This document shows, in pieces, positions 35,170-62,319 of a DNA stretch of 64,000 nucleotides (positions are counted from its first letter, which is position 1; every line of letters starts with the position of its first letter). Under the pieces are notes generated by a model. That model did not search any database, was not told the DNA's origin, and saw nothing but the letters and a program-made list of their open reading frames with translations. This stretch comes from Candidatus Uhrbacteria bacterium. GTDB lineage: Bacteria; Patescibacteriota; Patescibacteriia; UBA9934; GWF2-40-263. Where the stretch lies: positions 95,073 through 159,072 of the forward strand of contig CAIMOJ010000046.1 in NCBI GenBank assembly GCA_903843045.1, given 5' to 3'. The translations under genes and the position numbers were made by a program.

Positions 35170-36024
35170 ATGCCGCTGCTCATCGTCCTCTTCTATCAGC
35201 TCGTTCTTTTTCCCATCTTCTACCTGGCCGTCGTTCGCCTCGCGAGCACGGCTCCTGCCGATGCCGTCGATCCCGTTTCCCATTTCTCATCGACCGGACG
35301 CGCCTGCGCGCTCCCAGGATGGGCCGTCACGCTCGGCGCGATGACTCTCGTCCTTGCAATCATCGTCTGGCTCGTGGAGACATAGCCGGACTTCTCGAAG
35401 GCGCTCGACCGCTGGGGCACGATCCTCGTCCTCGGCGCGTTCCTCGGCGGAGTCTTTTCGCCCAAGACAACCTGGACCAGGCTCGCGCTGGGGTACGCGG
35501 CCGCCTACGCGCTCTTCGAGGGAGTGCGCGCCTGGACGAACTGGCTGACGCTGGAAATGCTCGGGTTCGCGGTCTGCGGCATCGGAATCCTGCTCTTTCG
35601 CCAGATCCGGACGCGGTTCCTTTCCTACGGGTCCGTCGGCATGATGCTCTATGACGTCATCAACGTCTTCGGAACGAAGCTGATGCTCCGCATCGTCCCG
35701 GACACATCGGACACGACGTCCATGGCACCAACCCTGGCCGGAACATTCTCCATCCCGATGTCCCTGAGCCTTTCCTCGGACGCGTCCGTCAGCCTCGGCT
35801 TCGGCGACATCGTCATCCCCGGACTCTGGGTGATGGCAGCGGCGCGGACGACCGATCGCCCGACGCGCGCCGTCCTCTGGACCGTTGCCGGAATCTCCGT
35901 CGCGCACGTGGTCACCCTCGGCGTCCTGATCGCCTCACAGGTTCCGCTCCCCGCCCTGCTCTTCCTCCTCCCCGGCGCCGCCGCCGGCTACTGGATCGGC
36001 ACCCACCCTCCGCACACCCGCTAA
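35170..36024 (+). pseudogene. Presenilin/SPP-like (A22 family GxGD) intramembrane aspartyl protease interrupted by an in-frame TAG at 35383-35385
   Basis: The two listed ORFs (35170-35385 and 35524-36024) are in the same frame. The 47 codons after the TAG have high GC3 and no start codon. The joined product has 9 TM helices with YD (MMLYDVINVF), GxGD (LGFGDIVIPG) and PAL (PLPALLFLLPG) motifs. Confidence 0.55.
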
Positions 36025-36791: not shown

Positions 36792-37193
36792 ATGAGAAAT
36801 ATCGCCATCGTCCTCGGCTCGTTCCACACGAAGGAGGTCTCGGAGATGCTCGACGAGGCCAAGCAGACCGCGGCCGAGCTCGGGCTCAACATCGTCGAGC
36901 TCGTATGGGTCCCGGGATCCATCGAGAAGCCGCTCGCGCTCAAGCGCCTGCTGATGCGCAGCGATATCCACGGCTGCGTGGCGCTCGGCATCATCGAGCG
37001 CGGCGCCACCAAGCATGGCCTCGTGATGGGCGAGGTGGTGTACGACGCCATCATCCGCCTCATGCTCGAATTCATGAAGCCCATCGGCCTCGGCATCCTC
37101 GGGCCGGAGATCGACCCGGAACAGATCGAACCCCGCCTTCGCCCGTACGCCCGCGCCGCGGTGGAAGCGACGGCCAAGATGATGGTCGTATGA
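36792..37193 (+). CDS. ribH: 6,7-dimethyl-8-ribityllumazine synthase
   Basis: 133 aa, lumazine synthase fold. Confidence 0.92.
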   Translation: MRNIAIVLGSFHTKEVSEMLDEAKQTAAELGLNIVELVWVPGSIEKPLALKRLLMRSDIHGCVALGIIERGATKHGLVMGEVVYDAIIRLMLEFMKPIGLGILGPEIDPEQIEPRLRPYARAAVEATAKMMVV

Positions 37194-38674
37194 TCGACGA
37201 CGACGGGTCCGTCCCGATGATCGTCGGAGCCGGCGTGATGCTTGGCGCGCTGTTTTACGGCTTGGTTTGGAGTTCGAACGGACTGGGAATCAACGCGTTT
37301 CTGATGCAGATCGCGTTCGTGGCCGCCATCGCCTGGCTCACGCGTCGAGCGGGCCGAACCCTTCCCCGCGAGGCGTGGGTTGCGGCGGCTTTCTCGCTGG
37401 CATTCGCGGGAACCTTTGCGATATGGACGTCCGACCTTGCGCTGGGCGTCGCGTTCGTCTGCCTCATGGTGTCGGAGGCGGCGTTCATTCTCTACGCCAT
37501 CGGCCATCACTTTGAATTCCACCACCCCGCGCTCTTTGCCCACGCCGCGTTCGTCATGACGCCCATCCATGCCCTCGGACGGCTCGGCATCTTCCGTCAC
37601 CTTCCGCTCCCAAGCCGCGCCCCGGCGCAAACGCGATCAATCGTGGTGGGCCTTCTCGCGCTTGTCCCGGTCCTGCTCGTCTTCGGAACCCTGTTCGCAT
37701 CCGCGGATCCCCTGTTCGGAGACTACGTGCGGAGTGTCCTAAATTTCTCCTCCGTTCCAGACTGGACGAGATACGCCGTTGGAACCCTCTTCTGGTCCGT
37801 CGCGTTCGCGTCCCTGCTCGGCCTCGCGTTTTGGAAACGGGAAACGTTCGCGTCGCACGTCCGGCCGAGTCCGCAGTGGCACGTCGAAAGCAACGTCGTT
37901 CTCTGCGGAGTCATCGGCCTGTTCGCGCTCTTTATCGCCGTCCAGGCAACCTACCTGTTCGGCGGCGAAGCGGCGTTCCTTGCCACCGACTATACCTTTT
38001 CCGAGTACGCCCGCCGCGGTTTCAACGAGCTCGTAACCGTCGCGACGATCGTTCTGTTCCTCTTCCTCAGCCTGCGCTACCTCCACGGCGATCGCGCGTC
38101 AAACATCCTGAGAGTTCTGTATGGCGTCCTCTTCGGCGAGACCCTGCTCGTCCTTCTCTCCGCGATCATCCGCATGAACCTGTACGTGGACGCCTACGGC
38201 TATACCGCGGCAAGGCTGTTCGCCTACGCGTTCCTTACGGCCGTCGCGACCCTCATCGTCGTCGCCTTCGTCCACGTCCTGCGCAACGAGCCCCAGCCGC
38301 GATTTATCCGGCAAGGACTGGTCGTCACCGGAATCTTCGCCCTTGCGTTCGTCGTCTCCGCCCCGGACGCACTGTCCATGAGCCTGAACGAGAACCGCTT
38401 CCGCCAGAACGGAGGAATCAGCCTGCTGGATATTATCTACGCGTCCGAGGAGGCATACCCGGTCATGCGCTCCATGGAAGCGCGCGGCATCGTCGCGTAC
38501 GATCTCGGGCCGTCGCAGGAGCTGACGGATACGGAAGTAAACGCGGAATTCCCCAGCCCCCAACCGGACTGGCGCCAATGGAACTTCTCAAAATCCCGCA
38601 TTGATCCGTCGAAACCCTATCCCTGGCTTGGCTGCGTAACCCCCGAATGCACGGCGACCGAAGCCCAGCCTTGA
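37190..38674 (+). CDS. Hypothetical polytopic membrane protein (DUF4153/DUF4173-like)
   Basis: Start at MIDDDGSVP, with an ATGA overlap on the ribH stop. About 12 TM helices and a C-terminal extracytoplasmic tail. Confidence 0.6.
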   Translation: MIDDDGSVPMIVGAGVMLGALFYGLVWSSNGLGINAFLMQIAFVAAIAWLTRRAGRTLPREAWVAAAFSLAFAGTFAIWTSDLALGVAFVCLMVSEAAFILYAIGHHFEFHHPALFAHAAFVMTPIHALGRLGIFRHLPLPSRAPAQTRSIVVGLLALVPVLLVFGTLFASADPLFGDYVRSVLNFSSVPDWTRYAVGTLFWSVAFASLLGLAFWKRETFASHVRPSPQWHVESNVVLCGVIGLFALFIAVQATYLFGGEAAFLATDYTFSEYARRGFNELVTVATIVLFLFLSLRYLHGDRASNILRVLYGVLFGETLLVLLSAIIRMNLYVDAYGYTAARLFAYAFLTAVATLIVVAFVHVLRNEPQPRFIRQGLVVTGIFALAFVVSAPDALSMSLNENRFRQNGGISLLDIIYASEEAYPVMRSMEARGIVAYDLGPSQELTDTEVNAEFPSPQPDWRQWNFSKSRIDPSKPYPWLGCVTPECTATEAQP

Positions 38675-38727
38675 TCAATCTGAGCGGGCATGATATTCTC
38701 TCGCCACGAGAAACTATCAGCCCAAAC

Positions 38728-38802
38728 GGCCCCATCGTCTAGCGGCTAGGACGGCTCCCTCTCACGGAGCAAACCCGGGTTCGATTCCCGGTGAGGTCAC
38801 CA
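38728..38802 (+). tRNA. tRNA-Glu (anticodon CUC)
   Basis: Cloverleaf read by hand. Acceptor GGCCCCA/UGAGGUC with one C-A mismatch. D-stem GTCT/GGAC. Anticodon stem GCTCC/GGAGC with loop CTCTCAC. T-arm CCGGG-TTCGATT-CCCGG. Discriminator A and encoded CCA. Confidence 0.8.
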
Positions 38803-38805
38803 AAA

Positions 38806-38836
38806 ATCCCCACGCAACTGCGTGGGGATTTTTGCT
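38806..38836 (+). terminator. Intrinsic terminator after tRNA-Glu
   Basis: ATCCCCACGC-AACT-GCGTGGGGAT followed by TTTTG. Confidence 0.7.
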
Positions 38837-38846
38837 TAGAAAGCGG

Positions 38847-39152
38847 TTATGACACAAGGTACCCGATCGCCGCCGTGACAACATTCATCACCACCCCCGT
38901 GGCAAACGCCAGCGCCCGGCGATCCCGGAACATCAGCCCAAGGACAATCCCCTCGAACGCCGCGACGCATGCTTCCGATAGGAACCAGTTCGCGTGCAAA
39001 ACGAAGATCATCTGCCAGACGATCGGATGCGAGACCATGTTGACCCCGACCACGACCAAGGTCACCCGCCGCCAGTCCTCCTGCCGCAGGAGGACGAGGG
39101 CGACGGGCAGCTCGACGGCGACCGTCAGGATGAGATACGTTATTTCTTCCAT
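38847..39152 (-). CDS. Hypothetical small membrane protein (101 aa)
   Basis: 3 TM helices. Last gene of a minus-strand surface-protein operon. Confidence 0.45.
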   Translation of the reverse strand: MEEITYLILTVAVELPVALVLLRQEDWRRVTLVVVGVNMVSHPIVWQMIFVLHANWFLSEACVAAFEGIVLGLMFRDRRALAFATGVVMNVVTAAIGYLVS

Positions 39153-39907
39153 GCCTTTGTGGCGAGAACCAGGATCGCGGCGCCCATGACGACGATGGCG
39201 ATCCAGAAGGGCGTCGAGGAGGAATTGGTGGAATCGGCGACGGGCGCGGGAACAATGATCGGGGTTGCCGCGACGGGTACCGTGTCGGTAGCGGGCTGGA
39301 CGGTCGTCGCGACGACGGGAGTCGCGGTCCGAACGGTCGGAAGCGCGGGGCCGCTCACGAGCTTCGCGGTCGCGTCATAGCGGGACTCGCTCACGAAGTG
39401 CGCGGTGAACTGCGCGTCCGTCAGCTGGTCGATATGATACGTCCAGACGATGTAGACGGCTGGATTCGAATCCGGGAGAGCGCCGTTCACAAGTTCTGTC
39501 TTTAAAGACTTTCCCTCTCCCGTACCGGTCGCAACGATCAGGTACTGCTTGTTTTCGGGAAGTTTGTCCCACATGTCGCCCTGCTCCCCGCTTGGATCGT
39601 CCTTGTGCGCGATTAACGACTGATTGCTTTTCTTGACGGCAACGAACGGAGGCAAGTCGGAGGTCGGATGCCCATTGGAAGCAATGTCCTTCTGAACGGG
39701 AGCGACCGCGTCCTTCGCCAGCGTCAAGGACGGTCCGAACCGCCAGCTCATGGTCGCGTAAACGTCGTATCCCGGATAATCCGCAAGGTTATCAAACTCC
39801 GCGTGCGTAGAATACTCGTGCGTTCCCGGATCCGGCGCGATGTCGGCCTTCGCGGCAAACGGCAGAATGGTCGCGCCAATGAGCAGAATTGAAAGGAGAT
39901 ATTTCAT
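39140..39907 (-). CDS. Hypothetical secreted/cell-surface protein with C-terminal T/P-rich linker and TM anchor
   Basis: Signal peptide MKYLLSILLIGATILPFAAKA, then PTVRTATPVVATTVQPATDTVPVAATP and a C-terminal TM segment. Confidence 0.55.
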   Translation of the reverse strand: MKYLLSILLIGATILPFAAKADIAPDPGTHEYSTHAEFDNLADYPGYDVYATMSWRFGPSLTLAKDAVAPVQKDIASNGHPTSDLPPFVAVKKSNQSLIAHKDDPSGEQGDMWDKLPENKQYLIVATGTGEGKSLKTELVNGALPDSNPAVYIVWTYHIDQLTDAQFTAHFVSESRYDATAKLVSGPALPTVRTATPVVATTVQPATDTVPVAATPIIVPAPVADSTNSSSTPFWIAIVVMGAAILVLATKAWKK

Positions 39908-39918
39908 AGGATTGTTCG

Positions 39919-40659
39919 TTACCGGTTTTTAATCTTCAGCGTCGACGCGATGTCCGTCATGGCCGCCAGCGCCTTGGTCAGCTCGGCGCTGCCCTTGACC
40001 GGAAAGTCGTTCACGACCTTGCCGTCGTAGGCCATGGTAACGACGAGGGCCGGATTCTGGCCGGGGACGTAATCGTTAAAGTACCCGTTGCCCGGGCTCG
40101 TCAGGTACGAGAAGAACCAGACGGTCTTCCCGTTCGTCGGAACCGAGCATCCGGCGCGGGCGTCGTCGGGTCCCACGAAATTGTCGACGCGCGAGAAGCT
40201 GTCGTGCGCGGGCGTCGTCTCCCTCGTGCCGCACTCGCCCGGCCAGTCGGTCACCACCGCGTCCGCGCTGGGCGCTCCCATCGCGATCTCGGCGAACCGC
40301 CCTCCCTCCACGCCGCTCGCCTGCGACGCGTTCACGTTGATGTACAGGATCCACTTTCCATTCGTCACGTTGACGCCGGCAGTGGTCGCGGCTTGCTTGG
40401 CGGTCCAGCCGGCGGGGACGGTCAACGTCAGATCGGCGGTATCATAGACGGTCCCCTTCTTTGCCGAGGCATCCGTCGCGGTGACGGCAGGCGACGTCGG
40501 AACGACCTTCGGATCGGAAGGCGCTACCGCGGACGAAACCGTCGCGTTAACCTGCGACGGACGCTGACGGCGGACGTTCCACGCGGGATAGGAGACGGCC
40601 GCCCCGACGAGAATAAGCGCAACAACCGCGATACCGATCGTCTGTGTCCGATTTGACAT
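39919..40659 (-). CDS. Hypothetical membrane-anchored extracytoplasmic protein
   Basis: Start at MSNRTQTIGIAVVALILVGAAV (ATG 40659). Signal anchor plus a 220-aa domain. The upstream part of the listed ORF is Arg-rich shadow. Confidence 0.55.
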   Translation of the reverse strand: MSNRTQTIGIAVVALILVGAAVSYPAWNVRRQRPSQVNATVSSAVAPSDPKVVPTSPAVTATDASAKKGTVYDTADLTLTVPAGWTAKQAATTAGVNVTNGKWILYINVNASQASGVEGGRFAEIAMGAPSADAVVTDWPGECGTRETTPAHDSFSRVDNFVGPDDARAGCSVPTNGKTVWFFSYLTSPGNGYFNDYVPGQNPALVVTMAYDGKVVNDFPVKGSAELTKALAAMTDIASTLKIKNR

Positions 40660-40811
40660 AGCACCAGATAAGTCACTCAGCGTGGGACTCTCCATTGAGT
40701 GTGGGCTACATCGGCCAGAAGCACAAGGACATTGACGTTCCGCGCACGGTCGACCATTCGGTTGCCCGGGATTCGGCGGGGTTGTTTCCTTTTCAACAAA
40801 AAAACGACGAT

Positions 40812-41735
40812 TCACGCGTCGAGCGTGGTCGCCGTCAGGCCGATGACGAGGTAGTCCGCGAGGGTGCAGTCGGGGGTCGGGTCGAACGTGCGGTACGCTT
40901 CCACGATCTCGGGGCCGTCCGCCACGATGCGGTCCTCGTCGAACGGGACGCCGGAGAACGCCTCGAGGACGCCCGGGGCGAGAGTTCCGTCGCGAATGAG
41001 CGCCCGGAGGATCTTTGCCCAGACGTCCGTGAACGATCCCACGAACTCGGCAAGCTCCTTGTACGCGATTCCAGCCTTGCGCGCGTGATGGGCCGCCCAG
41101 AGAAAATGCCCGCTCCACGACACGAGCTTCTCCGCCTCGTCGTCGACGACCGGGTGCGCGCCGGATTCCATCAGCGACGAGAACGGGTCGACGGCGGCGC
41201 ACAGGAGATCGATCGCGTCCGCGAGCGTGTCCGGATTCTCGGACCATTCGCGCTCCACGAACTCGTTGTCGTCCAGGTCTCCCGCGAGCATCGCGGACAC
41301 GTCCATCAGCCGTAGAAGGAGCTGCTCGTACGCGAGGTGCGCGTCCTGGACGGGATCGTCCGTGGCGCGAATCAGCGACGGAACGGAAGACAGCCGGCGC
41401 AGGAAGCGCGTCATCTCCGGGAGCGTATAGCGCAGCCCGAGCTCCCAAACTTCGCCCGCGATCAGGAGGCCGAACAGGTGGTCGGCCGGATCCGGAAGCG
41501 CCGACGCGATCTCTCCCGCCGCCTCGATCCACCCCTCGAACATCGGCCGGCCCGGCGTCGCCGCGCATGGAGCGCTTGCGTACCGCGCCAGCATCGCCCG
41601 CATGGGGTCGACCGGGTGCGTCCACGAGTGCGCGACCGCGGACAGCCGGTCCTGAAGCCACTCGAACCGGGCGTGGTCGGATGGGAATTCCCCGCCCCGG
41701 ACCTGCGTCGCATATCCCTCGATTTCCTTTGACAT
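40812..41735 (-). CDS. Hypothetical cytoplasmic protein
   Basis: Start at MSKEIEGYATQ (ATG 41735). 308 aa, coding-like GC3. Confidence 0.5.
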   Translation of the reverse strand: MSKEIEGYATQVRGGEFPSDHARFEWLQDRLSAVAHSWTHPVDPMRAMLARYASAPCAATPGRPMFEGWIEAAGEIASALPDPADHLFGLLIAGEVWELGLRYTLPEMTRFLRRLSSVPSLIRATDDPVQDAHLAYEQLLLRLMDVSAMLAGDLDDNEFVEREWSENPDTLADAIDLLCAAVDPFSSLMESGAHPVVDDEAEKLVSWSGHFLWAAHHARKAGIAYKELAEFVGSFTDVWAKILRALIRDGTLAPGVLEAFSGVPFDEDRIVADGPEIVEAYRTFDPTPDCTLADYLVIGLTATTLDA

Positions 41736-41848
41736 TCGTACCTCCGACGTGAGAGTAGACGAGGAAATCCCCTGCGTCAAGAATCGGGTGCCGCTCCTTG
41801 ACGCATCTTCGATTTCCCTCTACCCTACGCGGACACACGGAGCCTCGC

Positions 41849-42442
41849 ATGGCAATCATCGTAGACGCGTGCCCCGCGGAGGCGGGATGGCGCTATCGCC
41901 TCAGGGACACGCAGACGGCACGGTACGTGACCGACGGGACCGGCGCGGTCGAGATCACGGCGGAAATCAAGGCCATGATGGAATGGGGCGGAGTCCAGGA
42001 AAGCCCGGACGCGAATGCCGTCCTGAACCGGTGGCTGAACCTGGCACGTACGCGCGGCAGCAGCGACCTCTCGAAGAAGGCCGTGGAGCCCGCGGACAGG
42101 AAGTGACAGGCGCCGACGGAGACGGATCCGCCGGCCGGACCGCTCCGCTACGCCATCCGGTCGGCAGCCGTTGCTGGACAAATCGTCCAGGGCATCCTGA
42201 ACACCCAGATTGCCGAATGGACGTCCCGTCTCTCCCCCGAGGCGGCCGCGTTCCTGGGAACGTCCTTCGTCATTCCAGAGCTCCTGCGCGGCCCCGGCAC
42301 GGCGGTAATCCGTGCCCGCATCGGCTCGCATGCCGACACGCAGAAGCTCGTCACGGAAATCACCCTCGCCTTGCCCGAGATCGTCTCCGTCGAAACCGAA
42401 TGCGTCGACGATACCATCTCCTTCGTCTTCCGCCTGCGCTAG
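41849..42442 (+). pseudogene. Hypothetical protein gene with an in-frame TGA at 42104-42106 (85 + 111 codons)
   Basis: -35 TTGACG / -10 TACCCT / SD GGAG before ATG 41849. After the TGA the same frame continues for 111 high-GC3 codons with no ATG, GTG or TTG start until close to its end. It ends with TAG at 42440-42442, followed by a terminator-like hairpin. Confidence 0.5.
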
Positions 42443-42522
42443 CGCACGGCGGTTTTTTCTTGACGCTGATTGGGAAATCGTCTAACGTCCCGGCACGATC
42501 AACCACTCACCGGGAGCCAGCG

Positions 42523-43158
42523 ATGAAACTTCTCAGTCCGTTCTTTGACCAGGAAGGCAAGGCGGCGATCATGGGGCTGCGGGACGGGAAAAAATACACC
42601 GCGTTCGTCGTGCACGGCAAGGACGCGGCGCGTCACGTCGTCGCGCGCCACGCGGCAGCCGGCGACCGGCATTGGGAGATGCTCTCGCTCGTCGAGAACT
42701 CGCCGCTTCCCGGGCTGGCCGTCCTCGAGACGGAAATCGTCGACGGAGGGTCGGCGGAAATCGTGCACAGTGCGCTCGCGACGTTCGACGAGTTCGTGGG
42801 TCGGAACGCGCGCATCGACGAGACGGAAGAGGAGACGGCGCTCGCGGGCATCCAGCTGGCGTTCACCAGGCGCGGAAAGAGATCGGGAGGACTCCTGGCC
42901 TATCGGGATCCCGAGCGGAATTCCCACGTGTTCGCCTTCTGCGCGAAGCGCCAGGCGCGAAAGCACGTGCGCCAGCAGCTGATCTGGCTCGACAAGGAAC
43001 CATGCACCGCCATCTCCCAGAACGTCGAGGAGAGCGACCTTGACGACCAGCCACCCGTCAACGCCAACCCCGCGCGGCGCGAGGTCCACATCGTCGGCGA
43101 TCTCGCCACTCGCATCCGCATGGGACTCTACCTCCGAGCGACCAGGACGAAGCTCTGA
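42523..43158 (+). CDS. Hypothetical protein (211 aa)
   Basis: -35 TTGACG / N17 / -10 TAACGT / SD GGGAG before ATG 42523. Terminator GCACCGA-TCGT-TCGGTGC plus a T-tract at 43162-43188. Confidence 0.55.
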   Translation: MKLLSPFFDQEGKAAIMGLRDGKKYTAFVVHGKDAARHVVARHAAAGDRHWEMLSLVENSPLPGLAVLETEIVDGGSAEIVHSALATFDEFVGRNARIDETEEETALAGIQLAFTRRGKRSGGLLAYRDPERNSHVFAFCAKRQARKHVRQQLIWLDKEPCTAISQNVEESDLDDQPPVNANPARREVHIVGDLATRIRMGLYLRATRTKL

Positions 43159-43233
43159 CCCGCACCGATCGTTCGGTGCGTTTTTTATTGGAATGTGCTA
43201 TCGTTTAAGCATTGAAATCGCTCATCCACCCAT

Positions 43234-43764
43234 ATGCGATCCTCTCCATCCCCAAAGCCGCCAGGATTCTGGGAAAACCTGAAAAACGCTCCCGGCGACC
43301 TGATGAAGGAAATCAAGGGGGTCGTCGCGCCGAAGCCGAAGGAGTCTCCGCCGCAGACGACCACGGCCGAATTGAACCGTCAGGAGAAAACAACCGCAAA
43401 ATATCAGGCGCTCCACGCTGCCGACCAGCAGAAAAACGCCCCGGCAATCGACGCGATACGCAACCGGTGGAACCCGCCGCCCATGCGCCCCGTTGAGGCT
43501 CGGCGTCAACGGTCGGCCGTAGAGCAGGACATGGAAGACTCATTCAACGCGACGCCTGCGGGAAGAGAGGTCGGCGCCGCGGTCAAGGCCGGGACGATGG
43601 ACACGCGACCGCTTACTGCGGACGAGATGAGGAGCCGTGACACGAAACGCATGCTCCTCGACGCGCTGCCCGCGGCCAAGACGAAAGCGGATCAGGATCG
43701 TATCTACGCCCAGCTATACGCGCAAAAAGGCAAGCAGGCCGGCGGACAACATCCGAATCTATAA
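43234..43764 (+). CDS. Hypothetical low-complexity/disordered protein (176 aa)
   Basis: Long ORF, Lys/Pro/Ala-rich. A terminator follows it. Confidence 0.45.
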   Translation: MRSSPSPKPPGFWENLKNAPGDLMKEIKGVVAPKPKESPPQTTTAELNRQEKTTAKYQALHAADQQKNAPAIDAIRNRWNPPPMRPVEARRQRSAVEQDMEDSFNATPAGREVGAAVKAGTMDTRPLTADEMRSRDTKRMLLDALPAAKTKADQDRIYAQLYAQKGKQAGGQHPNL

Positions 43765-43765
43765 A

Positions 43766-43797
43766 AAACAGGCACGGGTCAGACCCGTGCCTTTGTG
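43766..43797. terminator. Bidirectional intrinsic terminator
   Basis: AGGCACGGGTC-AGA-CCCGTGCCT flanked by A6 and TTTG. Sits between convergent genes. Confidence 0.55.
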
Positions 43798-44210
43798 ATT
43801 TCCGCTTCGACGATGCGGATGATGTCCATGATGTGCGACATGGGCTTGAAGACCTCGGCGATTCGATGGTCGGCGAAGTACCCGTCGGGGAGGGTTTCGC
43901 GAAACTCCGGCCCGCCGCCATGAACGAGAATGAACGCGATGCGCCGCGCCCGCAGCGTCGGCTCGATCGTCGCGTGGATCGCGATTCCCGTCTCGCCGGA
44001 CAGCGTCTGGTCGCACAGCACGGCGACCACGTCGTCGTGCGCGTCGAGGAGCGCGCAAAGCTGCTCCCCGGACGATCCGGCGGAAGTCGAGAATCGTCCT
44101 TCCATTGCCAGAACGGTCGCGAAGATTTCGCAGATCAGTTGCTCGTCGTCAATCAACAGAACGCGCCCCAAGATGCACTCCTGTCCGGTTGGACAGGATA
44201 ATTGCACCAC
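43779..44210 (-). CDS. Single-domain response regulator (CheY-like receiver)
   Basis: 143 aa with LLIDDE and VLCDQ acidic-pocket/phospho-acceptor motifs. Confidence 0.75.
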   Translation of the reverse strand: MVQLSCPTGQECILGRVLLIDDEQLICEIFATVLAMEGRFSTSAGSSGEQLCALLDAHDDVVAVLCDQTLSGETGIAIHATIEPTLRARRIAFILVHGGGPEFRETLPDGYFADHRIAEVFKPMSHIMDIIRIVEAEITKARV

Positions 44211-44225
44211 GGTTCGCGAAAATAT

Positions 44226-45524
44226 TCAAGCCGCTTCCACCCACGCCCCGTACTGGCGAACGAGCAGTTCCTCCGCCCGCAGCGGCTCGGCCATCAGGTC
44301 CTTCACGACCTTTTCCATCCGTGCGCTCTGCGAACCCTTCACGAGCACGATGTCGCCCTTCTTCACGTTGAAGTCCAGCCATCTCCCCGCCTCGACCGAC
44401 GTCGCGAAGAACTCGACGTTGTGCTCGTCCATCCCGGCCTCGATGGCGCCGCGGCGCGTGTCGCGGCCCTCCTCGTTCACGCAGACGAGAATGTCCGCGA
44501 CCTCGGCGGCGCGCATGCCGAGAAGACGGTGCTCATTTTCGGAGTAGCGGCCGAGCTCGGCCATCTTGCCGAGGACGGCGATGCGACGCGCGTTTTCGTC
44601 GGGAGAGAAAAATCGAAGGACCTCTAGGGCGGAAGCCATCGAGGCGGGCGCGGCGTTATAGGAATCGTCGAGGAGGAGCGTCTCCTTGATGCCCGGCAGC
44701 GGGCGCATGCGTCCGGCCTGGGGTTGGAGCGTTCGGAGCGCGGCGACGATCTCGGAGAGCGGCATGCCGAAGTGTCGTCCGACCGCGGCGGCCGCGAGGG
44801 CGGCGCAGGCCTGGCCGCGGCCGAGGAGGTTTGGCAGGGAGACCTCGGCGCGCTCGTCGCCAACGACGAGGTCGAAGTGGATCTCGCAGAACGGCTCGTC
44901 GGACTGGCAGCGGAGAACGTCGTGCGTCTCGACGTGATAGTTTTCGGCGCGGACGTCGAGGCCTTCCGAGAACCCGTAGGTGACGACGGTTCCGTCGCCT
45001 CGTTCCGCAATCACGAGCGGGTCGTCGCCATTCAAAATCGCGACTCCTCCCCTCTTGAGATGACGGACGATTCCCGCCTTCTCGTGGGCGAGCGCCTCGA
45101 TCGAATCGAAATATTCCGCGTGGACCGGCGAGACGGCCGTGAAGACGGCCACGTCGGGCGGGGCGATCTTGCAGAGCGCGTCCATGTCGCCGGGACGGTC
45201 GATGCCGTACTCGAGCGCGAGGAGGTTCGGATACTTTGCGCGCGGGAGCAGCCAGAGCGCCTTGGCCCGGGCAAGGATGCCCAGCCAGCCCAGAATCGAC
45301 GAACCCGCGGTCTTTTCGCCGACGATCGTCAGCGGGACGCCGAACTCGTTGTTGTAGTTCTCCTCCGGAGACCGAACGACAAACCGACCGTCCAGGACGG
45401 CCGCGATCGCGTTTCGCGTCGAAGTCTTTCCGACCGACCCCGTCACGGCGACGACGGTCGGACGGTAGCGACGAAGGGTCATGCGGGCATGGAAGGCGAG
45501 CAACGATTGGATGAGATATTTCAT
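44226..45524 (-). CDS. murF: UDP-N-acetylmuramoyl-tripeptide--D-alanyl-D-alanine ligase MurF
   Basis: Start at MKYLIQSLLAF (ATG 45524). Mur ligase P-loop VTGSVGKTST. Confidence 0.9.
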   Translation of the reverse strand: MKYLIQSLLAFHARMTLRRYRPTVVAVTGSVGKTSTRNAIAAVLDGRFVVRSPEENYNNEFGVPLTIVGEKTAGSSILGWLGILARAKALWLLPRAKYPNLLALEYGIDRPGDMDALCKIAPPDVAVFTAVSPVHAEYFDSIEALAHEKAGIVRHLKRGGVAILNGDDPLVIAERGDGTVVTYGFSEGLDVRAENYHVETHDVLRCQSDEPFCEIHFDLVVGDERAEVSLPNLLGRGQACAALAAAAVGRHFGMPLSEIVAALRTLQPQAGRMRPLPGIKETLLLDDSYNAAPASMASALEVLRFFSPDENARRIAVLGKMAELGRYSENEHRLLGMRAAEVADILVCVNEEGRDTRRGAIEAGMDEHNVEFFATSVEAGRWLDFNVKKGDIVLVKGSQSARMEKVVKDLMAEPLRAEELLVRQYGAWVEAA

Positions 45525-45544
45525 AGGGTTATGGGGTCCGGAGG

Positions 45545-45592
45545 GTCGAAGGTTCGAAGAGCCGCGGTTCTTCGAACCTTCGACCCTATCCT
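45545..45592. repeat. GGTCGAAGG-family palindrome (18-bp stem hairpin) between ftsI and murF
   Basis: GGGTCGAAGGTTCGAAGAGCCGCGGTTCTTCGAACCTTCGACCC. The same core motif occurs at 10452-10500 and 26718-26760. Confidence 0.5.
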
Positions 45593-45605
45593 CCCTTCTC
45601 ACCCC

Positions 45606-47372
45606 TCAGAGAGGCCGCTCCGGCGGCACTTCGAAATATTGAAGAAGAAACTTCGCGATGTCCCCGAACAGCGGCGCGGCGGACGACTCGGCCCAGGTGA
45701 CGTCGCGCGGATGGTCGATGCGGACGATCATGACGAACCGCGGATTGTTCACCGGGCCGAACCCCGCGAACGAGCCGATCGTCGAGTCAAGCTCGTACCC
45801 GCCGCCGTCCGAACGCGCGACCTGCGCCGTGCCGGTCTTTCCGCCGATGTAATACCCCGGCACGCCCGCCTTCTTTCCGTGCCCGTTTTCGACGACGGAG
45901 ACAAGCATCGCTCCCAGCAGGCTCGCGGTCTTCGGCTGGACGACGCGGCGCACCTCCTGCGGAACGCGCGGATCGTGCGTCCCGTCCGGCTTCACCACGT
46001 CCTCGACGACATACGGCCGCATCAGCATCCCGTTGTTCGCAAGCGCGCCGTACGCCGCCACCATCTGAACCGGCGTGACCGTGATCCCCTGCCCGAACGA
46101 CGCGGTCGCCGCGTAAATCTCCTGTCCGATATCGAGCGACGCGATCGTACCCGACGACTCGGTTTCCATCTCCAATCCCGTTCGGACGCCGAACCCGAAG
46201 TTCTTCACGTACTCGACGAACTTTTCCATTCCCATCTGTCGCATCGAGTACACCATGCCCGTATTCACCGATTCCTCCAGCACGGTCGTCATGTCGATCA
46301 GCCCGTACACCTTGTTCTGCGCGTTCCGGATCGGCCTCGGCCATCCGCTCACCATCACCTCGCCCGTGTCCGTGAACGTGGTCGTGGGCGTCACGGCCCC
46401 GGTATCGACGGCCGCGGCCATCGTGATTGCCTTGAAGATGGATCCCGGCTCGTAGGAGTTGAAGATGGCAGGATTGTTGAAGGAATCGGTGGAAGGAGCA
46501 TTGCGATAATCGCCAGGCTCAAAGTCTGGCGACCCGCACATGGCAAGAATCTTGCCCGTTTTCGGCTCCATGACGATCACGCTTCCGCCGTCCGCCCCGT
46601 GCCGCGCCACGGCCTCCTTCAGCTTGGTGCACGCCTCGTACTGAATCGTGCGGTCTATCGTCAATACCACGTCGGACCCGTTCACCGCCGGCTCGATCGA
46701 GCGCTCCCCGACCGCGATCAAGCGCCCCGCGATGTCGCGCTCGCTGCGTAGGAACCCGGGAGTACCCGTCAGCTCCTGGTTGAAGTATCCCTCGATCCCG
46801 TACTTTCCGGTCATGGTCCCGTCCTCCGACGACCCGACGAACCCCGTCACCTGCCCTCCGAGCCCGGACTCGGGATACAGGCGTCCTTCCTCCCGGATAA
46901 AGTAGATACCGGGTAACTTCAGCGCGATGAGTTCCGAGAGCTTGTCCTCCTTCACGTTGCGCATGATCGGCTCGTAGGGGTCGGTATGCACGTCGAGGTG
47001 CGTCGCAATCGTCTTGACCTTGTCCGCGTCGAACCCGAACAGCGCCCCGAGCTTGTCGGCCGTCCCGATCGCATCCACGACCTTTCGCGGGTCGGCATAC
47101 ACGAACGAAACCTGCTGAACCGTCGCGATCGGAACGAGCGAGCCGTCCTTCATGTCATGGATCAGGATATCGCCGCGGCTCGGGAACAGTTCCTTGAAAA
47201 TCTCATGCTGGCCCGAGGCAAGCGCCACGTACGTGTCGTGGTCGAGCACCTGGAGCACGAACAGCTTCAGCGTGATCGCCACCGCAAACGCAACCATTCC
47301 GTAACGAATGGCATTCATGCGCCACTCGTTGTTTCCCTGCGACAGTGAGGATCCTCGTCGGTGTCGTGTCAT
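45606..47372 (-). CDS. ftsI: Peptidoglycan D,D-transpeptidase FtsI/PBP2-like (class B PBP)
   Basis: Start at MTRHRRGSS (ATG 47372). N-terminal TM, PBP dimerisation domain, and transpeptidase motifs SIFK, SVN and KTGT. Confidence 0.9.
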   Translation of the reverse strand: MTRHRRGSSLSQGNNEWRMNAIRYGMVAFAVAITLKLFVLQVLDHDTYVALASGQHEIFKELFPSRGDILIHDMKDGSLVPIATVQQVSFVYADPRKVVDAIGTADKLGALFGFDADKVKTIATHLDVHTDPYEPIMRNVKEDKLSELIALKLPGIYFIREEGRLYPESGLGGQVTGFVGSSEDGTMTGKYGIEGYFNQELTGTPGFLRSERDIAGRLIAVGERSIEPAVNGSDVVLTIDRTIQYEACTKLKEAVARHGADGGSVIVMEPKTGKILAMCGSPDFEPGDYRNAPSTDSFNNPAIFNSYEPGSIFKAITMAAAVDTGAVTPTTTFTDTGEVMVSGWPRPIRNAQNKVYGLIDMTTVLEESVNTGMVYSMRQMGMEKFVEYVKNFGFGVRTGLEMETESSGTIASLDIGQEIYAATASFGQGITVTPVQMVAAYGALANNGMLMRPYVVEDVVKPDGTHDPRVPQEVRRVVQPKTASLLGAMLVSVVENGHGKKAGVPGYYIGGKTGTAQVARSDGGGYELDSTIGSFAGFGPVNNPRFVMIVRIDHPRDVTWAESSAAPLFGDIAKFLLQYFEVPPERPL

Positions 47373-49228: not shown

Positions 49229-50644
49229 ATGGCGACATCCCACGCGGACCACGAGGTCTGGCAGAAAGAGCAGAATTTCATCTCGCAAAAGCGCAAGGAG
49301 AACCGAGAGCTGTTCGCGTCGTCGGACAAGGGCGCGTTCGATCTGTATGATCGAATCGGCATCACGTCGCATCCGCCGCAGCTGCCGAAGGGGTACGTGA
49401 AATATTCGCCGCTCGACTTCATCGTCGAGGAAATCCGTCCGGACGGAACGCTCATGACCGTCGACGGCCAGCCCGCCGTGCCGGAGACGCCCGACGGCGA
49501 GGGGACGATTTACGCGGATCTCACCAAGCTTGGCATCTCGACGCTCGACGCGGTCCAGCGCATGACCGACGTGCTTGGGGTTCCCCAGGACAAGATCGGC
49601 TACGCGGGAATCAAGGACGCGGTCGCGCTTACGGCGCAGCGAATCAGCGTCCGCGGAGGGTCGCTTGAGGCCGTGAAGAATCTCGCGATCACCGGCTGCC
49701 AGTTTCGACAGGTGGTCGACGGCAAGGGCGTGATCTCGACCGGCAACCTGAAGGGGAATCGGTTCACCCTTCTCATCCGCACGGAAGGCGAGCCCGACAA
49801 GGAGGCGTTCGCCGCGGCGATCGAGCTGGTGAAGACGCGGGGCGTGATGAACTACTACGGCACGCAGCGCTTCGGCACGCCGCGGTTTCTCGCCCACCTG
49901 TTCGGCGCGCACATCATGCGCGGCGACCTCGAATCGCTCATCAAGGCGTACCTCATGCAGCCGAGCCCGTACGAGCTCCCGTTCTACGCCAACATCCGGG
50001 CCGAGGCGGCCGCGGCGTATGGCGACTTTGCAAAGATGCAGACGATCATGGGAGTGCTCCCCTACTCGTTCCGCTACGAGCTCCAGATGCTCGAGGAGCT
50101 CGTCAAGAACCCGACGGGCTTCGAGGCGGCCATGAACCGCACGCAAAAGCAGGCGGACCTCTGGGCCCGCGCCTACGCCAGCTATCTCACCAACCTCATC
50201 CTCGCCGACGCGGAAAAAAACGGAACCAAGCTCCCGGACCGCATCCCGCTCCTCATCACGCAGGAACCGGAGGCGAAGCAGTTTTACGCGTCGTGGCTCA
50301 AACAGCACGGAACGGAGAGGTACATGGAGAACCTGAGAAAGTACCGGTTCATCAACGTGGGAAAGAACCAGACCATCGAGCCCGTCATCCGCCCGACGGT
50401 CCATGATTACAAGTTCGTCCCCGAGGGAATCGTCATCTCGTTCGACCTTCCGAAGGGCGCCTACGCGACAACGATCCTGATGTACCTGTTCGACTCCGTC
50501 AGCGGAACGCCGATTCCGGAATGGATGAACACGGCCGAGGTCGACACCAAGGAACTCCTCGGCACCGGCTCGCTCCGCCACGTCCGCGAACAATTTGCCG
50601 GGGAGATCGTTTCGGCGATGGCGAACAAGACGGACGACGAGTAG
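49229..50644 (+). CDS. truD: tRNA pseudouridine(13) synthase TruD
   Basis: 471 aa with catalytic-Asp motif GIKDAVALTAQRIS and NYYGTQRFG. Extended -10 TGgTAGAAT upstream. Confidence 0.88.
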   Translation: MATSHADHEVWQKEQNFISQKRKENRELFASSDKGAFDLYDRIGITSHPPQLPKGYVKYSPLDFIVEEIRPDGTLMTVDGQPAVPETPDGEGTIYADLTKLGISTLDAVQRMTDVLGVPQDKIGYAGIKDAVALTAQRISVRGGSLEAVKNLAITGCQFRQVVDGKGVISTGNLKGNRFTLLIRTEGEPDKEAFAAAIELVKTRGVMNYYGTQRFGTPRFLAHLFGAHIMRGDLESLIKAYLMQPSPYELPFYANIRAEAAAAYGDFAKMQTIMGVLPYSFRYELQMLEELVKNPTGFEAAMNRTQKQADLWARAYASYLTNLILADAEKNGTKLPDRIPLLITQEPEAKQFYASWLKQHGTERYMENLRKYRFINVGKNQTIEPVIRPTVHDYKFVPEGIVISFDLPKGAYATTILMYLFDSVSGTPIPEWMNTAEVDTKELLGTGSLRHVREQFAGEIVSAMANKTDDE

Positions 50645-60430: not shown

Positions 60431-61279
60431 TCAGTCCCGCTTGTTCGAAACTGCCGCGGCCGCCTTCCCGACCCCTTCGCTCCAGGCAGAATCCGCACGG
60501 GGCATGGCCGCGAGCCTCTCGACCGTCGTCCCGAGTTGAATCGCAACGGAGGCCTCGTGGATCATCTCGCCGGCGCGGTCCGCGACGATCTGGCACCCCA
60601 CGACCTTGCGCGTCTTCGGGTGCGCGACGATCTTCACGAGACCGGTCGCGACCTTTTCCGCGACCGCTCGCGGCAGCGTCGAAACGTCGCACCGGCCCAC
60701 GAGCGCGCCGCCGAACCTTGCCTTCGCCTCCGCGGCCGTGAGTCCCGCCGTCGCGACCTCGGTGTGAACGAACGCGACGCGGACCAAGGACGGATCAACG
60801 GGCTTGCCCGTGCGTCCCGCCGCCAGCACGACCGCCTCGAGCGCGTGCGTCTCGACCGTGGCGCCGGACCGTACCCTCAGTCCGTATACCGCCCCTGTCG
60901 CGTTGATGGCCTCGAGAATTTCCGCGGACGTCGCGACCTCGATCCCCAGCCGGGCAAGCCGAGCGCCTGCGACCGCGGAAATCTCCCGGTCGACGCGCGG
61001 CAGCACGTTCGCCTCCCGCTCCACGAGCAGGACGCGCGTCCCGAGCGACGCGAACAGCGCCGCGATCTCGCATCCCGTCGACCCCGCGCCGATGACCGCC
61101 ATCGTCTTCGGCAGCCGCTTGAGCGACAACGCGTCCCTCGCGCGCAACAAGTGAATCGTCTCGATGCCGGGAATGCCCGGCACGATCTCCTCGCGTCCGG
61201 CCGCGACCGCGCGCTCCGCCTTCGCGCGAAGGATTCTCGCGAGCGGCACGTCCAAAAAATCCATGGTGGGTTGCGACAT
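60431..61279 (-). pseudogene. Pyridine nucleotide-disulfide oxidoreductase fragment (Lpd/MerA/GR family) lacking the N-terminal FAD/redox-Cys domain
   Basis: 282 aa covering only the NAD-binding domain (MAVIGAGSTGCEIA) and dimerisation domain. The ATG is 1 nt after the upstream GH stop. It could also be an expressed truncated protein. Confidence 0.55.
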
Positions 61280-61280
61280 A

Positions 61281-62297
61281 CTAGCGCGATGAGAATATCC
61301 GCCTCGCCTCGTTCCACAGTCCCGGATCCCCGTGCTTCTTCAGCCAAAACCACCACTCCGCGCCCCAGAGGTTCGTCTCGGAAATGCCCGTGCGCGCGGC
61401 GAAGGCGACGTTCTCGGCGAGGTCGCGCGGGGTAAAGTAGGTCGCCCACTCGGCCGGGGCATTGTTCGCGATCGGCTCGCCGAACCAGGGTTCGGCCTGC
61501 AGTTCGGAAATGCCCACCTCGCCTGCGAACGGCCTGACGGCAAGGGCGCGGACGCGATAGACCCAGGCGGGAATCGGATAGTGGAAATAGCCGAACGTGG
61601 GGCTCCACGTGGTGCGGTAGAGCGAGATCCCGAGATCGTCGACGGGACCCGCGACGGGAAGCCATGCCTCCAGTTCCCCGCTGACCGTCGCCGCGATCGG
61701 GTGTCTGCCATCGGTTTGGCGAACGAGATCAATCTCGCGCCGCCACTCGGTCGCGTCGGGCTTCGGACACACGCCGAAGTCGAACAGCGGCTCGTTCTCC
61801 ACCTGCCAGCGAGAGAGCGCGGGACTGTTCTGATAGCGCGTAACGACGCCCCCGAGAAATGCCTCCAACGCCTCGTACCGCTTCGGGGCGTCGCCAGCCT
61901 CGGCCCAGTCCGGAACGAAGCATTCCGGCCACCGCGGCACTTTCATCCCAATCGCCAGCGTCACCGAAGCTCCGCGTTTCTCCGCCTCGCCCATCATCCA
62001 GTCCACGTCGTCCCAATGAAACTCGCCTTGGCGCGGCTCCACGTCCGACCAGTACACCGGAATTCGAAACCGTCGCACGCCGACGTCGTCCAGCAGCGCC
62101 GTAAACGTCTCCCGCGAATCCAGCCCAAGCTCCCGCGCGTGAATCGTAGAAAACGTCACGCCCAACTTCTGTCGCGCCGGCACCTCCGCCCAAACCGCCA
62201 ACCCAAACGCCGCCGCAACGATCAAAAATCCGACGGCAACGTGCCTCTTTTCGTATTTCGTTACTTTCGTAATATGTTTCGCACTTCGTAACCTCAT
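61281..62297 (-). CDS. Membrane-anchored glycoside hydrolase, GH clan A (GH5-like)
   Basis: Start at MRLRSAKHI (ATG 62297). Signal anchor VAVGFLIVAAAFGLAVWA and catalytic NEP motif WQVENEPLFDF. The listed longer N-terminus (TTG start) is an Arg-rich shadow. Confidence 0.65.
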   Translation of the reverse strand: MRLRSAKHITKVTKYEKRHVAVGFLIVAAAFGLAVWAEVPARQKLGVTFSTIHARELGLDSRETFTALLDDVGVRRFRIPVYWSDVEPRQGEFHWDDVDWMMGEAEKRGASVTLAIGMKVPRWPECFVPDWAEAGDAPKRYEALEAFLGGVVTRYQNSPALSRWQVENEPLFDFGVCPKPDATEWRREIDLVRQTDGRHPIAATVSGELEAWLPVAGPVDDLGISLYRTTWSPTFGYFHYPIPAWVYRVRALAVRPFAGEVGISELQAEPWFGEPIANNAPAEWATYFTPRDLAENVAFAARTGISETNLWGAEWWFWLKKHGDPGLWNEARRIFSSR

Positions 62298-62319
62298 CGC
62301 CCTTCGTACCCACCCGTGC

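What the first reader, a model, noticed from the sequence alone, without database searches (positions are those of the whole stretch)
41849..42442. Second coding region interrupted by an in-frame stop (TGA at 42104-42106) only 7 kb from the TAG-interrupted gene
A well-signalled gene (TTGACG / TACCCT / GGAG, ATG 41849) reaches TGA after 85 codons. The same frame then continues for 111 strongly coding-like codons (GC3 about 85%) with no ATG, GTG or TTG start until close to its end. It finishes with TAG followed by a terminator hairpin. Other genes in the window use TGA as a normal stop, so recoding is not genome-wide. Two internal stops of different kinds in neighbouring non-essential genes suggest either local sequence-quality problems or ongoing gene decay. 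Stop-codon read-through is the less likely alternative.
Basis: seen in the sequence. Interest (0 to 1): 0.5.

Follow-up and report, generated by a model that had tools for sequence, protein, structure and literature searches.

The report
Recent nonsense mutation in Uhrbacteria gene
A small gene of unknown function in an uncultured Candidatus Uhrbacteria-like bacterium was cut short by a single G-to-A change that turned a conserved tryptophan codon into a stop codon; this is ordinary, recent gene decay, not recoding or a sequencing error.

Summary
An ORF starts at ATG 41849 and meets TGA at 42104-42106. The same frame then runs 111 more codons with an unchanged coding signature to TAG 42440-42442.

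Relatives settle the interpretation. The family is tiny (13 representatives among 1.84 billion proteins), and the members aligned over their full length are single polypeptides of 185-217 aa. Eleven of 12 homologs have Trp at the stop position. Both relatives read at DNA level, including one about 97.5% identical, have TGG there. So the stop is a TGG->TGA (Trp86->opal) transition.

It is not an assembly error. The exact 85-aa product is indexed in 32 blocks of public assemblies, and two independent contigs are 100% identical to the window over 20 kb and 13.5 kb.

Other readings fail:
- No SECIS-like structure follows the TGA.
- TGA is the commonest normal stop in the window.
- The only canonical start downstream is 22 codons before the end.

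The nearest relative carries an independent CAG->TAG at codon 50. The TAG in the peptidase A22B-like gene 6.5 kb upstream is likewise TGG->TAG. The pN/pS ratio (0.23) shows no relaxation yet, so the lesions are recent.

Verdict: an ordinary nonsense pseudogene or truncation. Low-level Trp-restoring read-through is the only rival not excluded.

The parts
41798..41826 (+). Promoter-like element: -35 TTGACG (41798-41803), 17-nt spacer, -10 TACCCT (41821-41826)
   Evidence: Read. TTGACG is conserved in L003 and in the 58%-identical relative L001, whose second hexamer is TATCCT. Not called by the simple consensus scan. Function is inferred.
41839..41851 (+). Shine-Dalgarno-like GGAG (41839-41842) and start codon ATG (41849-41851)
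   Evidence: Of the 11 homologs that have their N-terminus, 10 begin MA(I/V/L) or MGI at this ATG and one begins MPL.
41849..42103 (+). Codons 1-85. This is the part still translated; in the model of the intact homolog it forms a beta-hairpin, two helices and part of the connecting segment.
   Evidence: The exact 85-aa product is present in many public assemblies.
42104..42106 (+). Premature opal stop TGA, derived from TGG (Trp86) by a G->A transition at 42106
   Evidence: L003 (about 97.5% nt identity) and L001 have TGG here. Trp occupies this column in 11 of 12 homologs.
42107..42439 (+). Codons 87-197. This former coding sequence is now downstream of the stop; it is still intact and coding-like, with no usable start codon.
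   Evidence: GC3 is 0.82. It is homologous to residues 87-199 of intact proteins. The only canonical in-frame start is TTG 42371. pN/pS against L003 is 0.25.
42440..42442 (+). Original stop codon TAG of the full-length gene
   Evidence: L003 also ends with TAG here; L001 ends with TGA at the aligned position.
42430..42458 (+). Intrinsic-terminator-like hairpin (42430-42452, with the TAG in the loop) followed by TTTTTT (42453-42458)
   Evidence: Folds at -14.8 kcal/mol, z = -2.9, with 2 of 200 shuffles as good. The stem and T-run are conserved in L001.
35170..36024 (+). Companion case: a peptidase A22B-like (signal-peptide-peptidase/presenilin-type) membrane protein gene interrupted by TAG at 35383-35385, derived from TGG
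   Evidence: The intact 287-aa homolog P0015 (80% identity) has Trp there. Its DNA (L007) reads TGG. Pfam PF04258 matches the downstream part.

Best explanation
This is one gene of about 197 codons. It belongs to a very small family of unknown function whose only taxonomically labelled member is a Candidatus Uhrbacteria MAG. A single G->A transition turned the conserved Trp86 codon TGG into the opal stop TGA. The allele is fixed in a clonal population that was sampled and assembled many times. Ribosomes now terminate after 85 residues. The remaining 111 codons have no start codon of their own and are no longer translated, apart from background read-through. They still look like coding sequence only because too little time has passed for further mutations to accumulate. 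In the model of an intact homolog the two halves form one confidently packed unit, so the 85-aa product most likely has lost the protein's function. That last step is inferred. The event is part of ordinary, ongoing inactivation of accessory genes in this lineage by GC->AT transitions.
For: Shown directly:
- Intact single-ORF homologs exist: P0002 (199 aa, 58% identity, 99% coverage), L006 in a Candidatus Uhrbacteria MAG (55% identity, residues 1-197), and further members of 185-217 aa.
- Trp occupies the stop column in 11 of 12 homologs, and the DNA of L003 and L001 reads TGG.
- The allele is reproducible. The 85-aa product is indexed in 32 blocks of the collection, with 18 contigs read. L004 and L005, from different samples, are 100.000% identical to the window over 20,258 and 13,551 bases.
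- No intact close allele was found. The search of 5.8 billion proteins returned no full-length protein with 90% identity or more.
- There is no independent start for the downstream part.
- TGA is a normal stop in the window: 24 of 57 coding-like ORFs end with it, 9 of them as TGAC.
- No significant RNA structure follows the stop (z = -1.36), and Rfam finds nothing there.

Context for decay:
- The closest relative, L003, carries an independent CAG->TAG at codon 50 of the same gene.
- The A22B-like gene 6.5 kb upstream carries TGG->TAG.
- A pyridine-nucleotide-disulphide oxidoreductase ORF at 60431-61279 lacks about the first 100 profile positions.

Structure: the AF2 model of the intact homolog has pLDDT 92.7 and pTM 0.80, with no low-confidence linker around residue 86.
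Against: - pN/pS between the window and L003 is 0.23 for the whole gene and 0.25 for the part after the stop. Neighbouring genes range from 0.13 to 0.50. No relaxed constraint is visible, which is expected if the lesion is very recent but also fits continued function. Only 15 substitutions were counted, so power is low.
- Two independent nonsense alleles among 17 differences in one 197-codon gene is more than neutrality predicts (about 0.5 expected, since 3% of possible changes give a stop). This could mean selection for loss, or tolerance through read-through.
- The L003 allele rests on a single contig.
- No expression or protein data are available.
Confidence: 0.8

Rival explanations
1. Leaky stop. 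The UGA is read through at a useful rate by near-cognate tRNA-Trp(CCA), which inserts Trp and regenerates the wild-type 197-aa protein. The gene would then be a down-tuned but functional allele, and the downstream codons would remain under selection.
For: - The stop replaces exactly the amino acid that near-cognate decoding of UGA would insert (Trp).
- pN/pS of the downstream part is 0.25, not visibly relaxed.
- The stop signal is UGA-C, which from my own knowledge of E. coli work (Poole et al. 1995) is a weak four-base termination signal.
- tRNA-Trp(CCA) gives background UGA read-through in E. coli, and more with 4-bp anticodon-stem variants (PMC13092985).
- In L003 the TAG replaces CAG (Gln), again a near-cognate relationship.
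Against: - TGG->TGA and CAG->TAG are simply the commonest transition routes to a stop codon, so the match between stop and restored amino acid is expected by chance.
- Only 4 TGG, 6 CAG and 1 CAA codons supply the 17 stop-creating transitions in this gene.
- TGAC ends 8 other coding-like ORFs in the window as an ordinary stop.
- There is no stimulatory structure downstream.
- The stop is not conserved in any relative.
- From general knowledge, background read-through in bacteria is usually a few percent or less.
- The tRNA-Trp gene is not in the window, so it could not be inspected.
Confidence: 0.1
2. Adaptive loss. Inactivating this gene is favoured by selection in this lineage, for instance because the product is costly or is targeted by a phage or host, so independent knock-out alleles rose to fixation in sister strains.
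For: - Two independent nonsense alleles exist in strains only 2.5% apart: TGA86 in the window lineage and TAG50 in L003.
- The other substitutions still show past constraint (pN/pS 0.23).
- No intact close allele was found in 5.8 billion proteins.
- The gene is far more divergent between relatives (55% aa identity to L006) than the flanking housekeeping genes (91-93% nt identity).
- It borders a variable island next to tRNA-Glu.
Against: - The sample is two events. A Poisson chance of two or more nonsense changes among 17 under neutrality is about 0.09 (my arithmetic).
- The L003 allele comes from a single contig.
- No defence or phage family matches the gene or its neighbours at a convincing level.
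- This is a refinement of the best explanation, with the same molecular event and a different evolutionary cause, rather than a true alternative.
Confidence: 0.06
3. Sequencing or assembly error. The true base at 42106 is G and the gene is intact.
For: None specific. It was raised because two in-frame stops lie within 7 kb.
Against: - The identical 85-aa product was called on at least 18 contigs and is indexed in 32 blocks of the collection.
- Contigs from two other samples are 100% identical to the window over 20 kb and 13.5 kb.
- The other stop (TAG 35383) lies inside the 20-kb identical stretch.
Confidence: 0.02
4. Recoding of UGA, either as selenocysteine or through an alternative genetic code (table 4 UGA=Trp, or table 25 UGA=Gly as in some other candidate phyla).
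For: The UGA sits at a Trp column, as it would under table 4. From general knowledge, some Candidate Phyla Radiation lineages use table 25.
Against: - TGA terminates 24 of 57 coding-like ORFs in the window.
- Gene calls made with the standard code give normal domain-bearing proteins.
- No SECIS-like hairpin is present (z = -1.36; no Rfam hit).
- Homologs have Trp at this position, not Cys or Sec.
- Only two in-frame stops were found in 64 kb.
Confidence: 0.01
5. Two independent genes. The downstream 111 codons are a separate gene with a non-canonical start.
For: The downstream part keeps a full coding signature.
Against: - All homologs aligned over their full length encode both parts as one polypeptide.
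- The only ATG/GTG/TTG in frame is at codon 175, and no Shine-Dalgarno-like sequence precedes any ATC/ATT/CTG candidate.
- The model shows one packed unit (pTM 0.80).
Confidence: 0.01

Closest known systems
Bacterial pseudogenes created by a single nonsense mutation (recent unitary pseudogenes, as catalogued in many bacterial genomes)
   Same: One base change converts a sense codon of a conserved residue into a stop. Intact orthologs exist in relatives. The downstream codons are still undamaged. Other genes in the same genome show similar lesions.
   Different: The host is an uncultured Candidatus Uhrbacteria-like bacterium known only from metagenome assemblies. The gene family is tiny and uncharacterised. 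A sister strain carries a second, independent nonsense allele in the same gene.
Natural UGA read-through by tRNA-Trp(CCA) in bacteria, including 4-bp anticodon-stem variants (PMC13092985)
   Same: A UGA at a Trp position, which near-cognate decoding would restore to the wild-type residue.
   Different: There is no evidence here of enhanced read-through. TGA, and TGAC in particular, is used as an ordinary stop by many neighbouring genes. The stop is not conserved in relatives. The tRNA-Trp gene could not be examined.
Selenocysteine insertion at UGA (bacterial selenoproteins such as formate dehydrogenase H)
   Same: An in-frame UGA inside a coding region.
   Different: No SECIS-like hairpin lies directly downstream. 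Homologs carry Trp rather than Cys or Sec. There is no redox motif.
UGA reassignment (table 4, UGA=Trp; table 25, UGA=Gly in Gracilibacteria and Absconditabacteria)
   Same: An in-frame UGA in a gene of a Candidate Phyla Radiation-type bacterium.
   Different: In a recoded genome nearly every gene carries in-frame TGA and TGA is not used as a stop. Here TGA is the most frequent stop codon, and only this one gene has it in frame.

Membership tests
Nonsense-mutation pseudogene / truncated allele | Relatives encode the two parts as one uninterrupted ORF | tested here: met
   P0002 is 199 aa with 99% coverage. L006 covers residues 1-197. Ten of the twelve aligned homologs are full-length proteins of 185-217 aa; two are shorter or partial.
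Nonsense-mutation pseudogene / truncated allele | The stop aligns with a sense codon one base change away | tested here: met
   The window has TGA where L003 and L001 have TGG. Trp occupies the column in 11 of 12 homologs.
Nonsense-mutation pseudogene / truncated allele | The stop is real, meaning reproducible in independent data | tested here: met
   The product is indexed in 32 blocks with 18 contigs read. L004 and L005 are 100% identical to the window. Raw reads were not available.
Nonsense-mutation pseudogene / truncated allele | No independent translation start for the downstream part | tested here: met
   The only canonical in-frame start is TTG at codon 175.
Nonsense-mutation pseudogene / truncated allele | Relaxed selection or further lesions after the stop | tested here: inconclusive
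   pN/pS is 0.25 downstream against 0.21 upstream and 0.13-0.50 in neighbouring genes, from only 15 substitutions. This is compatible with a very recent event.
Nonsense-mutation pseudogene / truncated allele | Full-length protein is no longer made | not testable with these tools
   Needs proteomics, ribosome profiling or a reporter assay.
Selenoprotein gene (UGA = Sec) | SECIS hairpin directly downstream of the UGA | tested here: not met
   The fold of 42095-42175 has z = -1.36, and 27 of 200 shuffles fold as well. There is no Rfam hit.
Selenoprotein gene (UGA = Sec) | Cys or Sec at the aligned position in homologs | tested here: not met
   Homologs have Trp in 11 of 12 cases and Pro in one.
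Selenoprotein gene (UGA = Sec) | selA, selB, selC and selD present in the genome | not testable with these tools
   Only a 64-kb window is available. No tRNA-Sec was found in it.
Genome-wide UGA reassignment (tables 4 / 25) | TGA is not used as a terminator and is frequent in frame inside genes | tested here: not met
   TGA ends 24 of 57 coding-like ORFs. A scan for in-frame stops with coding signal on both sides found only this TGA, plus a normal gene junction at 60431.
Programmed stop-codon read-through | The stop codon is conserved in relatives | tested here: not met
   All relatives have a sense codon at this position.
Programmed stop-codon read-through | A stimulatory context or structure distinguishes it from ordinary stops | tested here: not met
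   There is no significant downstream structure. The TGAC context is shared with 8 ordinary gene ends in the window.
Programmed stop-codon read-through | Measured read-through product | not testable with these tools
   Needs an experiment.

The most novel reading that the evidence does not exclude
The premature UGA, and the UAG in the sister strain, are tolerated or even favoured. One route is Trp/Gln-restoring near-cognate read-through that keeps a low dose of full-length protein, so the downstream codons stay under selection. The other is repeated positive selection for knocking out this fast-evolving, lineage-restricted gene at the edge of a variable island. Either would make it a natural example of dosage tuning or adaptive loss by nonsense alleles in a Candidate Phyla Radiation bacterium.
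Probability: 0.12. Interest if true: 0.45.

Novelty: new member of a known kind. Interest (0 to 1): 0.15.

Why it matters
There are three practical consequences.

- **Annotation.** The 85-aa ORF and the unannotated 333 bases after it should be recorded as one disrupted gene, not as a small gene plus an intergenic gap.
- **Data quality.** The case shows that in-frame stops in this metagenome-derived genome are real population alleles, not assembly noise.
- **Lineage biology.** The 64-kb window holds two nonsense-disrupted genes (this one and the TGG->TAG peptidase gene) and a 5'-truncated oxidoreductase remnant, and the closest relative carries an independent nonsense allele of this gene. This gives a small view of accessory genes being lost in an Uhrbacteria-like lineage.

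The finding does not reveal a new mechanism.

Tried and rejected
- **Known families.** Pfam and NCBIfam give no family for either half of the gene or for its neighbours. PADLOC has no hit for this gene; PHROGs gives one marginal hit (E 0.004, over 15 residues) and the PDB sequence profile one borderline hit to a designed repeat protein (E 0.0011).
- **Annotated records.** Megablast of 38000-46000 against annotated plasmid and phage records finds no match.
- **JGI metagenomes.** An exact-pattern scan around the stop with N at the third codon base found 0 matches. A protein-pattern scan also found no relatives.
- **IMG/VR viral contigs.** No relatives.
- **SECIS or other RNA elements.** Nothing found.
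- **Suppressor tRNA in the window.** None. The window holds only tRNA-Glu(CUC), tRNA-Pro(CGG) and a dubious 95-nt 'tRNA-Ile' call.
- **Other in-frame stops.** My GC3-based scan returned mostly antisense-frame artefacts. After filtering for GC1 > GC2, only the target and the normal gene junction at 60431 remained. The scan missed the TAG at 35383, which I found from the gene calls.
- **Literature.** Searches for in-frame stops in Uhrbacteria or Patescibacteria returned nothing relevant.

Full report
**1. The observation**

ATG at 41849 opens a frame that reaches TGA at 42104-42106 after 85 codons. The same frame continues for 111 codons to TAG at 42440-42442.

GC content by codon position is 0.62/0.52/0.86 before the TGA and 0.66/0.51/0.82 after it (sliding windows). 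The typical coding signature of this 62% GC sequence therefore crosses the stop unchanged.

After the TGA the only in-frame ATG, GTG or TTG is TTG 42371, at codon 175, which is 22 codons before the end. The long 469-aa ORF in another frame (41749-43158) does not have the coding signature in this stretch. It is the real frame only from ATG 42523 onward, which is the next gene (211 aa).

There are -35 TTGACG (41798-41803), -10 TACCCT (41821-41826) and GGAG (41839-41842). TTGACG is conserved in a relative only 58% identical at protein level, where the second hexamer reads TATCCT and the GGAG position reads AGGT. The terminator hairpin at 42430-42452 has the TAG in its loop and a U-run after it. 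It folds at -14.8 kcal/mol with z = -2.9. The simple consensus scanners called neither the promoter nor the terminator. I attribute the terminator miss to a bulge in the stem.

**2. What it is**

Neither half matches any Pfam or NCBIfam family.

A search of 5.8 billion proteins with the joined 197-aa translation returned two proteins. P0002 is an intact 199-aa protein with 58% identity and 99% coverage. P0001 is a 119-aa fragment with 94% identity.

An exhaustive HMMER search of 1.84 billion cluster representatives found only 13 family members. The ten aligned over their full length are single polypeptides of 185-217 aa covering both halves. The shorter entries are the two L003 fragments and one 157-aa partial protein.

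A species-representative genome scan found one locus, in a MAG labelled Candidatus Uhrbacteria (L006, JBAXQK010000019.1). It has an intact homolog covering residues 1-197. L006 is 91-93% identical in DNA to the window across the dnaK-grpE-hrcA-Na/H exchanger region. The window therefore comes from a close relative of that organism, a member of the Candidate Phyla Radiation.

In the 13-sequence alignment the column of the stop codon holds Trp in 11 of 12 homologs, followed by a conserved Arg. At DNA level, the closest relative L003 (about 97.5% identical over 2,575 bases, with no gaps) and the more distant L001 both read TGG where the window reads TGA. The stop is therefore a TGG->TGA transition, Trp86->opal.

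**3. It is not an error**

The exact 85-aa truncated product is indexed in 32 blocks of the public assembly collection, and 18 contigs were read. The two contigs shown come from different samples (ERZ27313436 and ERZ27313425). They are 100.000% identical to the window over 20,258 and 13,551 bases.

The allele is thus fixed in a clonal population that was assembled independently many times. No intact allele of 90% identity or more exists in the protein collection.

**4. Recoding and split-gene readings**

- TGA ends 24 of 57 coding-like ORFs in the window, 9 of them in the same TGAC context. TGA is therefore an ordinary terminator here, and there is no genome-wide reassignment.
- The 81 nt around and after the stop fold no better than shuffles (z = -1.36). 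A permissive Rfam scan finds nothing. Homologs have Trp, not Cys or Sec. Selenocysteine is therefore excluded.
- No suppressor tRNA lies in the window.
- The downstream part has no start codon.
- An AlphaFold2 model of the intact homolog P0002, built from an 11-sequence alignment, is confident throughout (pLDDT 92.7, pTM 0.80). It shows no disordered linker near residue 86. The two halves are predicted to form one unit rather than two independent proteins.

**5. Context: other lesions**

- The closest relative, L003, keeps TGG at codon 86 but has CAG->TAG at codon 50 of the same gene. Gene callers split it into 49-aa and 119-aa pieces. This is an independent nonsense allele, although it is known from one contig only.
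- The 'TAG-interrupted gene' 6.5 kb upstream is a peptidase A22B-like membrane protein gene (35170-36024) with TAG at 35383-35385. Its intact, 80%-identical 287-aa homolog has Trp there, and that homolog's DNA reads TGG. This stop is again a single G->A change in a Trp codon.
- A pyridine-nucleotide-disulphide oxidoreductase ORF at 60431-61279 lacks about the first 100 positions of its domain profile and abuts the next gene. It looks like a 5'-truncated remnant.

**6. Age and selection**

Between the window and L003 the gene has 9 synonymous and 6 non-synonymous differences besides the two nonsense changes. pN/pS is 0.23 overall, 0.21 before the stop and 0.25 after it. The neighbouring genes range from 0.13 to 0.50.

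There is no sign of relaxed constraint. With pS of about 0.06 and 15 substitutions, this only says that the gene was constrained for most of the divergence and that both nonsense changes are recent.

Three percent of possible single-base changes in this gene create a stop: 53 of 1,773 changes, and 17 of 591 transitions. Two nonsense changes among 17 differences is therefore somewhat more than the roughly 0.5 expected under neutrality. That keeps two minor readings alive: selection for loss, and tolerance through read-through.

**7. Mechanism and rivals**

- **Best explanation (confidence about 0.8).** This is a recent, fixed opal nonsense mutation. Translation ends at residue 85, the last 111 codons are silent and still pristine, and function is probably lost. 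The loss of function is inferred from the single-unit model.
- **Leaky stop (about 0.1).** UGA is the stop that tRNA-Trp(CCA) can misread, which would rebuild the wild-type protein. Background UGA read-through by tRNA-Trp occurs in E. coli and is enhanced by 4-bp anticodon-stem variants (PMC13092985). However, TGG->TGA is simply the commonest way to make an opal codon. The context is shared with ordinary stops, no relative conserves the stop, and the tRNA-Trp gene is outside the window.
- **Adaptive loss (about 0.06).** This is the same molecular event with a selective cause.
- **Others (0.02 or less each).** These are sequencing error, Sec or code change, and two separate genes.

**8. The gene itself**

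The gene is much more divergent between relatives (55-58% aa identity) than the flanking housekeeping genes. It lies at the edge of a variable segment next to tRNA-Glu. Its downstream neighbours, the 211-aa and 176-aa proteins, are present in L006 and in the close relatives L003-L005, but not in L001.

**9. Comparison with what is known, and verdict**

This is a standard nonsense pseudogene or truncated allele in an uncharacterised, lineage-restricted gene of an uncultured bacterium. It fails the defining tests for selenoprotein genes, alternative genetic codes and programmed read-through. It meets every computationally testable criterion for a recent nonsense pseudogene except detectable relaxation of selection, which is inconclusive.

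Novelty is a new member of a known kind. Interest is low (0.15). The main value is correct annotation, plus the reassurance that the in-frame stops in this assembly are biological.

Noticed in passing
window 35170-36024 (TAG at 35383-35385): A peptidase A22B-like (signal-peptide-peptidase/presenilin-type) membrane protein gene is interrupted by TAG. An intact 80%-identical homolog (P0015, on L007) has Trp/TGG there, so this is a second G->A nonsense mutation in a Trp codon. The relatives L006 and L001 lack the gene altogether.
   Followed up: yes
L003 1-2575 (corresponds to window 40879-43453); codon 50 of the target gene: The closest relative (97.5% nt identity, same sample as L001) has TGG at codon 86 but CAG->TAG at codon 50 of the same gene. 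This is an independent nonsense allele, seen on a single contig only.
   Followed up: partly
window 38728-41735, compared with L006 9235-10000 and L001 4231-6107: The segment between tRNA-Glu(CUC) (38728-38802) and the target gene is variable. The window has four minus-strand genes of unknown function (101, 255, 258 and 307 aa). L006 has only a '23S rRNA intervening sequence protein'-type gene there. L001 has that gene, a 53-aa ORF and a 308-aa gene. The window also carries a DUF4153 gene (37190-38674) that L006 lacks. This looks like a tRNA-adjacent variable island.
   Followed up: partly
window 60431-61279 (- strand): The pyridine-nucleotide-disulphide oxidoreductase ORF (282 aa) matches its Pfam domain only from profile position 105 onward. 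It directly abuts a glycosyl-hydrolase-like gene (61281-62411). It seems to lack the N-terminal FAD-binding part and may be a 5'-truncated remnant.
   Followed up: partly
window 49858-49952 (- strand): ARAGORN calls a 95-nt 'tRNA-Ile(GAU)' inside the TruD gene (49229-50644, + strand). Rfam's tRNA model does not find it at gathering score, so it is probably a false positive.
   Followed up: no
window 42523-43158 and 43234-43764: The two downstream genes (211 aa, with a sub-threshold S4-domain hit at E 0.006, and 176 aa) have no family assignment. They are present next to the target in L006 and in the close relatives L003-L005, but not in L001, and may be functionally linked to it.
   Followed up: no
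window 39919-41859 (- strand) and 41749-43158 (+ strand): These two very long ORFs (646 and 469 aa) are mostly high-GC artefacts. Their Arg/Pro/Gly-rich translations overlap the real genes in other frames, and only part of each coincides with a real gene. ORF length alone is misleading in this sequence.
   Followed up: partly
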